64,000 bases of DNA, taken from NCBI RefSeq assembly GCF_003018255.1, contig NZ_CP027440.1; one strand, 5' to 3'. Made by a program: the position numbers and the translations under genes. Below the pieces are notes generated by a model that ran no database searches, was not told the DNA's origin, and saw nothing but the letters and a program-made list of their open reading frames with translations. Each line of letters begins with the position of its first letter. Position 1 is the first letter of the stretch. Shown here piece after piece: positions 2,109 through 7,931 of the stretch. Origin of the DNA: Escherichia coli. Its GTDB lineage: Bacteria; Pseudomonadota; Gammaproteobacteria; Enterobacterales; Enterobacteriaceae.

Positions 2109-3398
2109 ATGAAAAAACAACGTAATTTACGTAGCATGGCGGCCCAGGCCGTTGAACAAGTCGTCGAGCAAGGGCAATCATTAAGCAACATTCTGCCACC
2201 GCTCCAGCAAAAAGTTTCCGATAAAGACAAAGCACTTCTTCAAGAGTTGTGCTTTGGCGTACTGCGTACGCTTTCGCAGTTAAACTGGCTGATTAATAAG
2301 TTAATGGCCCGTCCGATGACCGGCAAACAGCGGACCGTGCATTACCTGATTATGGTTGGTTTGTATCAACTGCTTTATACCCGCATACCACCTCATGCTG
2401 CGCTGGCTGAAACGGTTGAAGGCGCTATCGCAATTAAGCGCCCGCAACTTAAAGGGTTGATAAACGGTGTATTACGCCAGTTCCAGCGTCAGCAAGAAGA
2501 GTTATTAGCCGAGTTTAATGCCAGTGATGCACGTTATCTGCATCCTTCCTGGTTGCTGAAGCGTCTGCAAAAAGCGTATCCAGAGCAGTGGCAATCCATC
2601 GTCGAAGCCAATAACCAGCGTCCGCCAATGTGGCTGCGCGTTAATCGTACGCATCATTCCCGCGACAGCTGGCTTGCATTGCTGGATGAAGCAGGAATGA
2701 AAGGTTTCCCGCCTGCGGATTACCCTGATGCTGTACGTCTGGAAACACCTGCACCTGTTCATGCGCTACCTGGTTTTGAAGACGGATGGGTTACCGTTCA
2801 GGATGCCTCAGCACAAGGTTGCATGACCTGGCTTGCGCCACAAAACGGTGAACACATTTTGGATCTTTGTGCCGCCCCCGGCGGTAAAACAACGCATATC
2901 CTTGAGGTGGCACCAGAAGCGCAGGTTGTTGCGGTTGATATTGACGAACAGCGCCTCTCTCGCGTTTACGACAATTTAAAACGCCTTGGTATGAAGGCAA
3001 CCGTGAAACAAGGTGATGGCCGCTACCCTTCCCAATGGTGTGGCGAGCAACAGTTTGATCGCATTTTATTAGATGCGCCTTGTTCAGCAACCGGTGTGAT
3101 TCGTCGCCATCCGGATATTAAATGGTTACGTCGCGATCGCGATATCCCGGAACTCGCGCAATTGCAGTCTGAAATTCTCGACGCCATTTGGCCGCATTTA
3201 AAATCCGGTGGAACCCTGGTCTATGCCACCTGTTCGGTGTTACCGGAAGAGAATAGCCTGCAGATTAAAGCCTTTTTGCAACGTACCGCTGATGCCGAAC
3301 TTTGCGAAACAGGAACACCAGAGCAACCGGGTAAACAAAATCTGCCTGGTGCCGAAGAGGGCGACGGCTTCTTTTACGCTAAGCTAATCAAAAAGTGA
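2109..3398 (+). CDS. rsmB: 16S rRNA m5C967 methyltransferase
   Basis: ORF track 2088..3398; start set to ATG 2109 (MKKQRNLRS...); SAM-MTase motifs [10 protein letters not shown] and DAPCSATG. Confidence 0.9.
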
Positions 3399-4925: not shown

Positions 4926-5336
4926 ATGAGCATTATTAAAGAATTTCGCGAATTTGCGATGCGCGGGAACGTGGTGGATTTGGCGGTGGGTGTCATTATC
5001 GGTGCGGCATTCGGGAAGATTGTATCTTCACTGGTTGCCGATATCATTATGCCACCTCTGGGGTTATTAATTGGCGGGATCGATTTCAAACAGTTTGCTG
5101 TCACGCTACGCGATGCGCAGGGGGATATCCCTGCTGTTGTGATGCATTACGGTGTCTTCATTCAAAACGTCTTTGATTTTCTGATTGTAGCCTTTGCCAT
5201 CTTTATGGCGATTAAGCTAATCAACAAACTGAATCGGAAAAAAGAAGAACCAGCAGCCGCGCCTACACCAACTAAAGAAGAAGTATTACTGACAGAAATT
5301 CGTGATTTGCTGAAAGAGCAGAATAACCGCTCTTAA
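4926..5336 (+). CDS. mscL: Large-conductance mechanosensitive channel
   Basis: ORF track 136 aa; recognisable MscL sequence (two TM helices, charged C-terminal tail). Confidence 0.97.
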
Positions 5337-5551
5337 CAAGCGCCTGAAAGCAGAAGGCCAGTGGTAAAAAAGTGATTTACTTTCTTGCCACTGGCCTCCC
5401 AGTTCCCCCGATTGCCATGTTTTCCTTTTCGCATGTAACTGCCTTTCCCTTTCTTATTTCTCTCTACGCGCTGTCGGAATAAGGGATCATGTAGTAATGC
5501 TTCTATCGCATTATCCTTTATCTGCCCTTTAGTATGCTGATATCGGCTCAT
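5333..5551 (-). CDS. arfA: Alternative ribosome-rescue factor A (full-length 72-codon frame)
   Basis: ORF track 72 aa ([44 protein letters not shown]...); convergent with mscL with 4-nt 3' overlap. Confidence 0.9.
5356..5396 (-). other. Stable hairpin inside arfA coding region (RNase III / truncation site by established knowledge)
   Basis: Perfect 9-bp inverted repeat ggccagtgg ... ccactggcc read in sequence, covering about codons 52-65 of arfA. Confidence 0.7.
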
Positions 5552-5606
5552 AAAAACTCCAATTGGTTATTTAACGGCGCGAGTGTAATCCTGCCAGTGT
5601 AAAAAA

Positions 5607-6032
5607 TCAACAGCCACTCTTAACGCCACTCGCCCCTTGTTCAAGAGCTTCAAGAATCGAGCAATAAACACTGCTATGGGCGGTCCCACAACAGGCATCG
5701 TTAAGGCGTTGGAGGGAACGCTGCATACTCTGCAACTCGGCTATCCGTGCTTCGACTTCCTGCAATCTTTCCTGCACAATGCCTTTTGACTCCTGACAGG
5801 TATGGTGTTCAGGATCGATACGGATCGACAGCAACTCGCGGATCGACTCTAGACTGAAACCTAGTTGTCTGGCATGGCGGATAAATTTCAATCGCTGGAG
5901 ATCGCTTTCGGTATACAGGCGAAACCCACCTTCAGTACGCACTTCATGCTCCATCATCTGCTGTTTTTCGTAATAACGAATCGTGTCGGGTGTTACTTCC
6001 GCCATTTTTGCCAGCTCACCAATGCGATACAT
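5607..6032 (-). CDS. zntR: Zn(II)-responsive MerR-family regulator
   Basis: ORF track 141 aa; N-terminal MerR HTH, C-terminal Cys-rich metal site. Confidence 0.93.
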   Translation of the reverse strand: MYRIGELAKMAEVTPDTIRYYEKQQMMEHEVRTEGGFRLYTESDLQRLKFIRHARQLGFSLESIRELLSIRIDPEHHTCQESKGIVQERLQEVEARIAELQSMQRSLQRLNDACCGTAHSSVYCSILEALEQGASGVKSGC

Positions 6033-6042
6033 ACATACTCCA

Positions 6043-6411
6043 CTAGTTATCGTTGATTTTATTCAACAACTTGTCAGCATAATCGCCGCGTAAAAAATCG
6101 GTGCTCAGTCCAGCTTGTCGCAGCTTCAATTCCAGTAATGACAATCGACGGCTAACCTCTTGATATTGCGGATCATCGTGACGGATACCTCTCAGGATAT
6201 CCAGAAGCTGAATTGCTTCCCTCCGCTGCTCAAGTTCTGGCGGTAAGCAACCGGCATTCTTCAGCAAGCGATACCCCGCACGTAATTCCGGTGGCACATG
6301 AGAATCATCAGCCAGTATCAATGGTTCGCCGCTACCTGCCAGGTTATCAAACTCACCTTTCGCTTGCGCTTCTGCTATATGACGCTCTGCCCACTGGTCA
6401 AGTAACCACAT
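6043..6411 (-). CDS. yhdN: Uncharacterised protein YhdN (DUF1992-like)
   Basis: ORF track 122 aa; ends 10 nt upstream of zntR start, same strand. Confidence 0.85.
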   Translation of the reverse strand: MWLLDQWAERHIAEAQAKGEFDNLAGSGEPLILADDSHVPPELRAGYRLLKNAGCLPPELEQRREAIQLLDILRGIRHDDPQYQEVSRRLSLLELKLRQAGLSTDFLRGDYADKLLNKINDN

Positions 6412-6476
6412 ATATACTCCAGGGGATGAACAAAAAGAGTACAGCTATTGTAGATAAGTGGGGATGCTACGGGTAT

Positions 6477-6504
6477 AAAAAAACCCGCCGGGGCGGGTTT
6501 TTTT
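6477..6504 (-). terminator. Rho-independent terminator after rplQ (alpha operon end)
   Basis: A-run, GC hairpin cccgcc/ggcggg, T-run; palindromic so it reads as a terminator on both strands. Confidence 0.75.
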
Positions 6505-6517
6505 ACGTTGCTTCAGA

Positions 6518-6925
<408 letters not shown>

Positions 6926-6941
6926 TTAACCTGTGATCCGG

Positions 6942-7931
6942 TTACTCGTCAGCGATGCTTGCCGGTGGCCAGTTTTCCAGGCGCATGCCCAGAGACAGTC
7001 CACGGGAAGCCAGCACGTCTTTAATCTCAGTAAGAGATTTTTTACCAAGGTTAGGCGTTTTAAGGAGCTCAACCTCGGTACGCTGTACCAGATCACCGAT
7101 ATAGTGGATAGCTTCTGCTTTAAGGCAGTTAGCAGAGCGGACAGTCAATTCCAGATCGTCAACAGGGCGCAGCAGGATCGGATCGAACTCTGGTTTCTCT
7201 TCTTTCACTTCAGGCTGACGTACATCACGTAAGTCAACGAAAGCTTCCAGTTGTTCAGCCAGAATGGTTGCCGCACGACGAATCGCCTCTTCAGGATCGA
7301 TTGTGCCGTTGGTTTCCATTTCGATGACCAGCTTGTCCAGGTCGGTACGCTGTTCTACACGCGCTGCTTCAACATTGTAGGCAATACGCTCCACAGGGCT
7401 GTAGCATGCGTCGACCAGCAGACGGCCGATTGGGCGCTCATCTTCTTCCGAATGAATTCGGGTAGAAGCCGGCACATAACCACGACCGCGCTGAACTTTG
7501 ATACGCATGCTAATAGACGCGTTCTCATCGGTCAGGTGGCAGATCACGTGCTGCGGCTTGACGATTTCGACATCACCGTCGTGGGTGATATCGGCTGCAG
7601 TCACAGGGCCAATGCCAGATTTATTCAAGGTAAGAATAACTTCATCTTTGCCCTGAACTCTCACCGCCAGCCCTTTCAGGTTGAGCAGGATTTCCAGGAT
7701 ATCTTCCTGAACGCCTTCTTTGGTGCTGTACTCATGTAGTACACCATCAATCTCAACCTCGGTCACCGCGCAACCCGGCATCGATGAGAGCAGAATACGG
7801 CGCAGTGCGTTACCCAGAGTATGGCCAAAGCCACGCTCTAAAGGCTCAAGGGTCACCTTGGCGTGCGTCGAACTCACTTGCTCGATATCAACCAGGCGCG
7901 GTTTTAGAAACTCTGTCACAGAACCCTGCAT
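6942..7931 (-). CDS. rpoA: DNA-directed RNA polymerase alpha subunit
   Basis: ORF track 329 aa; recognisable RpoA sequence. Confidence 0.98.

What the first reader, a model, noticed from the sequence alone, without database searches (positions are those of the whole stretch)
6043..6411. yhdN, an uncharacterised ORF co-oriented immediately upstream of zntR
yhdN ends 10 nt before the zntR start with no intervening terminator, which suggests co-transcription of an unknown-function protein with the zinc-responsive regulator.
Basis: inference. Interest (0 to 1): 0.15.

Follow-up and report, generated by a model that had tools for sequence, protein, structure and literature searches.

The report
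Known heat-shock operon yhdN-zntR
The small gene yhdN does sit 10 bases upstream of the zinc regulator gene zntR in this E. coli sequence and is almost certainly transcribed with it, but this yhdN-zntR operon, driven by the heat-shock sigma factor, is already in the databases and literature, so the finding is correct but ordinary.

Summary
On the minus strand, yhdN (6043-6411, 122 aa) ends with TAG. Ten bases later (6033-6042, tGGAGtatgt, which holds a ribosome-binding site) zntR starts at 6032. No terminator-like hairpin lies between them.

The window is core E. coli chromosome, with the gene order rplQ-terminator-yhdN-zntR-arfA and mscL convergent.

The co-transcription idea is supported. 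In 72 of 79 Enterobacterales loci zntR directly follows yhdN. In 71 of these the gap runs from -8 to +18 nt, most often 2 nt or a 1-nt overlap. The zntR ribosome-binding site is often the last two yhdN codons (GAGGAG). Synonymous sites inside yhdN show no conserved embedded element.

It is not new. Papers list yhdN-zntR as one transcription unit of the sigma-32 (RpoH) regulon, with yhdN/zntR co-expression of 0.93. The transcript continues into arfA.

YhdN is a DUF1992/DJC28_CD protein with no J domain. It is predicted to be all-helical and has no solved structural relative. A 2025 paper reports a heat-shock growth defect in a yhdN deletion mutant.

Outside Enterobacterales, yhdN homologues are not next to MerR-type regulators, so a zinc-specific role for YhdN is unsupported.

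Interest is low and the finding is already known.

The parts
6518..6901 (-). rplQ (ribosomal protein L17), last gene of the alpha operon, upstream neighbour of yhdN
   Evidence: ORF list. RefSeq annotation of identical DNA.
6475..6506 (-). Intrinsic terminator after rplQ (A7-CCCGCC-CCGG-GGCGGG-U7). It insulates yhdN from the alpha operon.
   Evidence: RNA fold -18.4 kcal/mol, z -3.71, 0 of 200 shuffles as good. It is conserved in all 73 aligned orthologous intergenic regions. The consensus scan did not report it.
6456..6463 (-). CCCCACTT, a sigma-32 -10-like element (consensus CCCCATNT), 44 nt upstream of the yhdN ATG. It is the candidate core of the published PyhdN promoter.
   Evidence: Motif search. 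CCCCAYNT sits at the same offset in 17 of 73 orthologous regions, against a shuffle mean of 1.3 and maximum of 5. Consensus as quoted in PMC6687850. Sigma-32 ChIP signals at yhdN are in the literature. No convincing -35 is present: the rplQ terminator T-run lies at that position.
6447..6452 (-). TACAAT hexamer (within TCTACAAT), conserved at a fixed offset. Its role is unassigned: it could be the start-site region of the sigma-32 promoter or a second -10 element.
   Evidence: Present in 35 of 73 orthologous intergenic regions at the same position.
6417..6420 (-). Shine-Dalgarno GGAG of yhdN, 5 nt before the ATG
   Evidence: Sequence.
6043..6411 (-). yhdN coding sequence (122 aa plus TAG stop); DUF1992 / DJC28_CD protein
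   Evidence: 1552 homologue clusters at E<=1e-3. Amino-acid conservation with saturated synonymous sites. AlphaFold model with pLDDT 90, six helices.
6033..6042 (-). 10-nt yhdN-zntR junction, tGGAGtatgt, carrying the zntR Shine-Dalgarno (GGAG at 6038-6041)
   Evidence: Sequence. Identical in MG1655. The junction is 18 nt or less, or overlapping, in 71 of 72 orthologous loci.
5607..6032 (-). zntR, the Zn(II)-responsive MerR-family activator (141 aa)
   Evidence: Pfam MerR_1 and MerR-DNA-bind. NCBIfam ZntR equivalogs: 247 bits against a cut-off of 143, and 206 against 168.
5333..5551 (-). arfA, the alternative ribosome-rescue factor, 55 nt downstream of zntR. It is the third cistron of the transcript according to the literature.
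   Evidence: Pfam ArfA, E 2.5e-25. A zntR-arfA polycistronic mRNA was shown experimentally in PMC10107115.
5351..5401 (-). Stable hairpin inside the arfA ORF, described in the literature as the intrinsic terminator within arfA. It is the likely 3' end of the yhdN-zntR-arfA transcript.
   Evidence: RNA fold -39.7 kcal/mol, z -4.90, 0 of 200 shuffles as good. [quoted passage not shown] 4b of PMC10107115.

Best explanation
yhdN and zntR are the first two cistrons of one known operon in the E. coli chromosome.

- **Start of transcription.** Transcription starts in the 106-nt spacer between the rplQ terminator and yhdN, at the published sigma-32 (RpoH) promoter PyhdN. Its sequence trace here is a CCCCACTT -10-like element at 6456-6463.
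- **Path of the transcript.** RNA polymerase reads through yhdN and across the 10-nt junction, which holds only the zntR ribosome-binding site, into zntR. According to published work it continues into arfA and ends at the hairpin inside arfA.
- **Translation of zntR.** zntR is translated from its own Shine-Dalgarno placed at the very end of yhdN. In E. coli this lies in the 10-nt gap. In most relatives it lies inside the last yhdN codons with overlapping or 2-nt-spaced stop and start codons, so translation is probably coupled.
- **Consequence.** The amount of ZntR follows the heat-shock and protein-damage response rather than zinc. Zinc acts on the ZntR protein.
- **YhdN itself.** It is a small all-helical DUF1992/DJC28_CD protein without a J domain. 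It most likely works in the heat-shock and proteostasis response, not in zinc handling.

Shown here: the anatomy, the lack of a terminator, the conserved tight junction, the family memberships and the lineage-restricted linkage. Taken from the literature: sigma-32 dependence, the single transcription unit, co-expression and read-through into arfA. Inferred: translational coupling and YhdN's role.
For: - **Anatomy.** The genes share a strand, with a 10-nt gap holding GGAG 5 nt before the ATG.
- **No terminator.** There is no terminator-like site in or after yhdN on the minus strand and no sigma-70-like site on that strand. The junction RNA is unstructured. A strong terminator lies only upstream of yhdN, after rplQ.
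- **Core locus.** 5422 of 5426 complete E. coli genomes carry the locus.
- **Comparative data.** Of 79 Enterobacterales loci, 72 have zntR directly after yhdN. Gaps were 2 nt (28 loci), a 1-nt overlap (17), 10 nt (12), 0 nt (4), 3 nt (3), 4 nt (2), 6 nt (1), 18 nt (2) and an 8-nt overlap (2), plus one 354-nt outlier from a disrupted yhdN.
- **Embedded ribosome-binding site.** yhdN codon 121 is GAG in 36 of 37 loci where the residue is Glu, because it forms the zntR Shine-Dalgarno. All other synonymous sites vary freely, so no conserved embedded element such as an internal promoter is visible.
- **Promoter region.** CCCCAYNT occurs at a fixed offset in 17 of 73 orthologous intergenic regions, against 1.3 expected.
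- **Literature.** yhdN-zntR appears in the RpoH regulon list (PMC2710865). yhdN is a previously reported sigma-32 ChIP target with a confirmed signal (PMC2996942). The RNAP-bound region at this locus carries only a SigH peak (PMC3923258 supplement). EcoCyc lists a single transcription unit, the Spearman correlation is 0.93, heat induction was seen, and a yhdN deletion shows a heat-shock growth defect (PMC12356324). The locus map shows PyhdN and ParfA, and a zntR-arfA polycistronic mRNA was shown by northern blot (PMC10107115). yhdN and zntR rise together in stress arrays.
Against: - I saw no transcript data directly. The junction-spanning RNA is taken from database and literature statements.
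- The sigma-32 promoter is imperfect in sequence. The -10 matches 6 of the 7 specified bases, and there is no recognisable TTGAAA -35 (at most 3 of 6).
- The CCCC motif is absent in Klebsiella and Raoultella and in families beyond Enterobacteriaceae, whereas the neighbouring TACAAT is better conserved.
- The promoter and terminator scan has limited sensitivity. It missed both the obvious rplQ terminator and the published arfA promoter inside zntR. Its silence inside yhdN is therefore weak evidence.
- ChIP-chip resolution (about 350 bp) cannot exclude a second start site inside yhdN.
Confidence: 0.9

Rival explanations
1. zntR is expressed mainly from its own promoter inside the yhdN coding sequence, and the close spacing is only compact gene packing.
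For: - Internal promoters exist in this very locus: the arfA promoter lies inside zntR (PMC10107115).
- The consensus scan is too insensitive to rule one out.
- ZntR must be present without heat shock, which needs some basal transcription.
Against: - No sigma-70-like site lies on the minus strand of 5200-6950 at the scan threshold.
- Synonymous sites of yhdN are saturated across 76 orthologues, with no conserved stretch except the zntR Shine-Dalgarno.
- Only a SigH peak is listed for the RNAP region, with no SigD or SigS peak.
- yhdN/zntR expression correlation is 0.93 and the genes form a single annotated transcription unit.
- The published locus map shows no zntR promoter.
Confidence: 0.08
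2. yhdN-zntR is a distal extension of the ribosomal alpha operon (rpsM-rpsK-rpsD-rpoA-rplQ), transcribed by read-through of the rplQ terminator rather than from its own promoter.
For: The genes share the orientation of rplQ, with only 106 nt between them, and this gene order is conserved in most Enterobacterales.
Against: - A strong, universally conserved intrinsic terminator follows rplQ.
- yhdN behaves as a heat-shock gene, not as a ribosomal-protein gene.
- Sigma-32 ChIP signals lie at the intergenic region.
- In Providencia, yhdN sits elsewhere on its own.
Confidence: 0.05
3. The linkage reflects a shared function: YhdN is a partner or modulator of ZntR in zinc homeostasis.
For: - Adjacency and probable translational coupling are conserved in 72 of 79 Enterobacterales loci.
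- A database protein-interaction score is highest with ZntR, as reported in PMC12356324. That score probably derives from neighbourhood and co-expression.
Against: - Five Enterobacterales loci keep yhdN-arfA without zntR.
- In the two Providencia species sampled, yhdN stands alone in another context.
- None of five distinct informative contexts from more distant homologues has a MerR-type neighbour. Their neighbours are an SDR, DUF4404/HIT, His_Phos_1/DSBA, DUF4126/FKBP_C and unannotated ORFs.
- YhdN has no metal-binding motif among its invariant residues: G19, L24, G28, R44, L50 and P57.
- The published deletion phenotype concerns heat shock.
Confidence: 0.07

Closest known systems
yhdN-zntR transcription unit of E. 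coli K-12 (b3293-b3292), sigma-32 (RpoH) regulon, as listed in EcoCyc and RegulonDB and cited in PMC2710865 and PMC12356324
   Same: It is the same locus. The gene order and the 10-nt junction are identical, and the compared stretch is 97-99% identical to MG1655.
   Different: Nothing of substance. There are a few strain-level substitutions, one of them just upstream of the CCCC motif (GCAT here, GTAT in MG1655).
yhdN-zntR-arfA locus and RUTEX regulation (PMC10107115)
   Same: The window holds the whole published arrangement: PyhdN region, yhdN, zntR, a 55-nt spacer without a terminator, and arfA with its internal hairpin.
   Different: The published transcript model extends into arfA and makes ZntR levels depend on trans-translation and PNPase.
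Pfam PF09350 DJC28_CD (DUF1992), the conserved C-terminal domain of eukaryotic DNAJC28
   Same: YhdN residues 7-74 match the full 70-position profile (E 6.6e-24, 84 bits against a cut-off of 27).
Classical sigma-32 heat-shock promoters (-10 consensus CCCCATNT as quoted in PMC6687850; -35 CTTGAAA from my own knowledge of Nonaka et al. 2006, which I could not open)
   Same: A C-rich -10 element, CCCCACTT, lies 44 nt upstream of the start codon and is conserved at a fixed position in close relatives.
   Different: There is no recognisable -35. The T-run of the rplQ terminator occupies that position.

Membership tests
Polycistronic operon (yhdN-zntR as one transcription unit) | Same strand and short intergenic distance | tested here: met
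   Both genes are on the minus strand with a 10-nt gap.
Polycistronic operon (yhdN-zntR as one transcription unit) | No transcription terminator between the genes | tested here: met
   There is no terminator-like site. The junction fold has z -1.33 and no U-tract.
Polycistronic operon (yhdN-zntR as one transcription unit) | No independent promoter for the downstream gene | tested here: inconclusive
   There is no sigma-70-like hit on the minus strand and no conserved synonymous-site stretch in yhdN. However, the scan is insensitive: it missed the known arfA promoter.
Polycistronic operon (yhdN-zntR as one transcription unit) | Adjacency conserved across species | tested here: met
   72 of 79 Enterobacterales loci keep the adjacency, and 71 of those have a gap of 18 nt or less.
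Polycistronic operon (yhdN-zntR as one transcription unit) | A transcript that spans the junction | not testable with these tools
   Literature only: EcoCyc transcription unit and correlation 0.93, operon list, locus map.
Sigma-32 (RpoH) regulon promoter | -10 element CCCCATNT | tested here: met
   CCCCACTT at 6456-6463 matches 6 of the 7 specified bases. CCCCAYNT occurs at the same offset in 17 of 73 orthologous regions, against 1.3 in shuffles.
Sigma-32 (RpoH) regulon promoter | -35 element (C)TTGAAA, 13-17 bp upstream | tested here: not met
   The best candidates are TTTTTTA or TTTTATA in the terminator T-run, matching 3-4 of 7 bases.
Sigma-32 (RpoH) regulon promoter | Sigma-32 occupancy and heat induction in vivo | not testable with these tools
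   Literature only: ChIP-chip signal 1.3 at yhdN, SigH_337 as the only sigma peak, heat induction.
Pfam PF09350 DJC28_CD / DUF1992 | Profile match above the curated gathering score | tested here: met
   84.3 bits against 27, covering profile positions 1-70 of 70. NCBIfam PRK10203 equivalog: 227 bits against 155.
J-domain (DnaJ/Hsp40) protein | J domain (PF00226) with an HPD motif | tested here: not met
   The Pfam scan at E<=0.01 returns only PF09350. The 122-aa sequence contains no HPD tripeptide.
ZntR (MerR-family Zn(II) sensor) for the downstream gene | Equivalog-level profile match | tested here: met
   PRK09514: 247 bits against 143. TIGR02043: 206 bits against 168.
RNA thermometer (SD-sequestering hairpin in the 5' UTR of a heat-shock gene) | Conserved or covarying helix that pairs with the Shine-Dalgarno | tested here: not met
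   An 8-bp helix is the MFE in E. coli, but z is only -0.54. RNAalifold predicts no consensus pairs. 62.5% of cells are paired against 63.5% in shuffles, with no covariation.

The most novel reading that the evidence does not exclude
The promoter region may hold more than the annotated sigma-32 promoter. The TACAAT hexamer (within TCTACAAT) and the U-rich leader (GTAyTCTTTTTGTTCAT) are better conserved across Enterobacteriaceae than the sigma-32 CCCC motif. A second, sigma-70- or sigma-S-type start site, or a leader-binding regulator, could therefore supply basal and stationary-phase expression of yhdN-zntR-arfA.

Separately, yhdN-arfA adjacency persists in five Enterobacterales species sampled here that lack zntR at this site. 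YhdN could therefore be a J-domain-less proteostasis factor linked to ribosome rescue rather than to zinc.
Probability: 0.15. Interest if true: 0.3.

Novelty: already known. Interest (0 to 1): 0.08.

Why it matters
It matters little as a discovery. The operon, its heat-shock control and its continuation into arfA are already published.

It explains why the amount of the zinc sensor ZntR follows protein-damage stress and ribosome-rescue status rather than zinc. It also marks YhdN as one of the few heat-shock regulon proteins whose biochemical activity is still unknown.

- The yhdN-zntR junction is tightly conserved, often overlapping, across Enterobacterales.
- The zntR ribosome-binding site is commonly encoded by the last YhdN codons.
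- The linkage to zntR is confined to this order, which argues against a zinc-specific role for YhdN.

Tried and rejected
1. **RNA thermometer in the yhdN leader.** An 8-bp hairpin pairing UGUACUCU with the Shine-Dalgarno region is the MFE in E. coli. It is no better than shuffles, has no consensus structure and shows no covariation or excess pairing. Rejected.
3. **Rfam scan of 5200-6950.** Only sub-threshold hits appeared, all caused by the rplQ terminator.
4. **Public start-site and operon tables.** The Conway 2014 supplement is not held. Thomason 2015 and Nonaka 2006 are not held. The SMRT-Cappable-seq supplements had no hit. Only the Cho 2014 ChIP-chip table was informative.
5. **Sigma-32 -35 element.** None is convincing.
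6. **DNAJC28 literature.** There is no mechanistic characterisation that could be transferred to YhdN.
7. **Zinc partnership of YhdN.** Genomic context outside Enterobacterales gives it no support.

Full report
**What is in the sequence.**
- The window is E. coli chromosome. A 1.4-kb stretch around the finding occurs in 5425 of 5426 complete E. coli genomes (5422 with at least 80% coverage) and is 100% identical to several strains. RefSeq annotates it as mscL, arfA, zntR, yhdN and rplQ.
- On the minus strand the order is as follows:
  - rplQ (6518-6901)
  - a strong intrinsic terminator (6475-6506; -18.4 kcal/mol, z -3.7)
  - a spacer
  - yhdN (6043-6411, 122 aa)
  - a 10-nt gap (6033-6042, tGGAGtatgt)
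  - zntR (5607-6032)
  - a 55-nt spacer
  - arfA (5333-5551), which carries a very stable internal hairpin (5351-5401; -39.7 kcal/mol, z -4.9)
- mscL converges on arfA from the plus strand.
The scan found no terminator-like site between the two genes. The junction RNA folds no better than shuffled sequence and has no U-tract. MG1655 has the same junction base for base.

**Identity of the genes.**
- YhdN matches Pfam PF09350 (DJC28_CD, formerly DUF1992) over the full profile (E 6.6e-24). It also matches the NCBIfam equivalog PRK10203.
- No J domain is detected, so the label 'DnaJ family domain-containing protein' in some records overstates what is present.
- The downstream gene meets both ZntR equivalog models.
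- yhdN is a real gene under protein-level selection. A full-database HMMER search finds 1552 clusters of homologues. Across 76 Enterobacterales orthologues the amino acids are conserved while synonymous positions are saturated.
- An AlphaFold model built on 43 diverse homologues is confident (pLDDT 90) and consists of six helices.
- The invariant positions (G19, L24, G28, R44, L50, P57, plus the LKNAG-x-PPE motif) contain no obvious metal ligands.

**Is it an operon?** I fetched 80 loci from one-genome-per-species Enterobacterales assemblies and mapped the neighbours.
- In 72 of 79 usable loci, zntR follows yhdN directly on the same strand.
- The gap was 2 nt in 28 loci, a 1-nt overlap (TGATG or TAATG) in 17, 10 nt in 12, 0 nt in 4, and never more than 18 nt. 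The one exception is a locus where yhdN carries a premature stop.
- In most genera the last two YhdN codons are GAGGAG, which is the zntR ribosome-binding site. Codon 121 is GAG 36 times and GAA once, whereas every other synonymous site varies freely.
- This pattern is the signature of a co-transcribed and probably translationally coupled pair. It also shows that no other conserved DNA element, such as an internal promoter, is embedded in yhdN.
- This is not proof. The promoter scan is insensitive: it missed both the rplQ terminator and the published arfA promoter inside zntR.

**What the literature already says.**
- yhdN-zntR appears as one operon in the RpoH regulon list used by Brynildsen and Liao in 2009 (PMC2710865).
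- yhdN is among the sigma-32 targets reported by ChIP-chip and other methods, and it was re-detected by Waldminghaus and Skarstad (PMC2996942).
- In the sigma-factor ChIP-chip atlas of Cho et al. (PMC3923258 supplement), the RNA-polymerase-bound region 3437407-3437757 carries a SigH peak (3437245-3437614) and no SigD or SigS peak. After converting from the older genome version with my own estimate of about +1976 bp, that peak runs from inside yhdN to about 80 bp upstream of its start codon.
- A 2025 paper (PMC12356324) states that yhdN is RpoH-regulated and that yhdN and zntR share an EcoCyc transcription unit. It reports an expression correlation of 0.93, induction by heat and in stationary phase, and slower recovery of a yhdN deletion mutant from a 50 C shock.
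- Onodera et al. (PMC10107115) draw the locus with PyhdN and ParfA as promoters and a terminator inside arfA. They show a zntR-arfA polycistronic mRNA whose degradation by PNPase after trans-translation lowers ZntR.
- Stress microarrays list yhdN and zntR together.

**The promoter region.**
- The only sigma-32-like element between the terminator and yhdN is CCCCACTT at 6456-6463, 44 nt before the ATG. The consensus CCCCATNT is quoted in PMC6687850.
- CCCCAYNT sits at exactly the same offset in 17 of 73 aligned orthologous spacers, against 1.3 expected from shuffles.
- There is no acceptable -35. The T-run of the rplQ terminator lies at that position.
- The adjacent TACAAT (6447-6452) and the U-rich leader are conserved more widely (35 of 73 loci), including in Klebsiella and Raoultella, which lack the CCCC box. 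I cannot say whether this is the start-site region of the sigma-32 promoter or a second -10 element.
- I tested whether the leader forms a heat-labile hairpin over the ribosome-binding site. The hairpin exists in E. coli, but it is not better than chance and is not conserved.

**Does the linkage say anything about YhdN's function?** Probably not about zinc.
- Five Enterobacterales loci have yhdN followed directly by arfA with no zntR: Pantoea allii, P. eucrina, Lonsdalea, Sodalis and Chimaeribacter.
- In the two Providencia species sampled, yhdN stands alone between an AbgT-type transporter and an AraC-type regulator.
- In five distinct informative contexts from more distant homologues there is no MerR-type neighbour. 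The neighbours are an SDR, DUF4404/HIT, His_Phos_1/DSBA, DUF4126 with an FKBP-type isomerase, or unannotated ORFs. Two further contigs were too short to judge.
- The association with zntR is therefore a gene order specific to this order of bacteria.
- The best reading is that YhdN is a heat-shock and proteostasis protein of unknown biochemistry, and that ZntR (and ArfA) expression has been placed under the same stress promoter.

**Verdict.** Interest is low.

Noticed in passing
window 5351-5401 (minus strand), inside arfA 5333-5551: A very stable hairpin lies inside the arfA ORF (-39.7 kcal/mol, z -4.9). It corresponds to the terminator within the arfA ORF drawn in PMC10107115. MG1655 annotation also lists an 'arfA-derived small regulatory RNA' (yrdG) over the arfA 3' end. 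mscL (plus strand, ends 5336) and arfA overlap convergently by 4 nt.
   Followed up: partly
window 6447-6452 and 6421-6445 (minus strand): TACAAT (within TCTACAAT) and the U-rich yhdN leader GTACTCTTTTTGTTCAT are conserved at fixed positions in about half of the Enterobacterales spacers. That is more widely than the sigma-32-like CCCC box. Their role is unassigned. An SD-sequestering thermometer hairpin was tested and not supported.
   Followed up: partly
window 6475-6506: The rplQ terminator is a perfect A7/U7-flanked palindrome, so it looks bidirectional. It is conserved in all 73 aligned loci, yet the consensus terminator scan did not report it on either strand. This is a caveat for negative results from that scan.
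   Followed up: yes
L062, L065, L066, L067, L079 (Pantoea allii, Lonsdalea britannica, Sodalis sp., Chimaeribacter californicus, Pantoea eucrina): In these Enterobacterales, yhdN is followed directly by arfA (87-180 nt spacer) with no zntR between them. Either zntR was lost there or it was inserted in the other lineages. I did not check whether zntR lies elsewhere in those genomes.
   Followed up: no
L005 around 3367-3387 and L003 around 2400-2412: Divergent Escherichia lineages replace the E. coli junction TAGtggagtatgtATG with TGA(ga)n aatttATG. One has an expanded GA repeat that gives an 18-nt gap, so the junction contains a short variable dinucleotide repeat in those lineages.
   Followed up: no
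L072 (232-bp contig labelled Alkalicoccobacillus porphyridii): A 232-bp, low-coverage contig in a Bacillales assembly encodes a fragment 97% identical to E. coli YhdN. This is almost certainly E. coli contamination of that assembly.
   Followed up: no
L041 (Pseudocitrobacter faecalis) around 2213-2587: The yhdN reading frame from the expected start hits a premature stop after a few codons, while the rest of the gene is still recognisable. This is a possible pseudogene, a sequencing error or a mis-set start.
   Followed up: no
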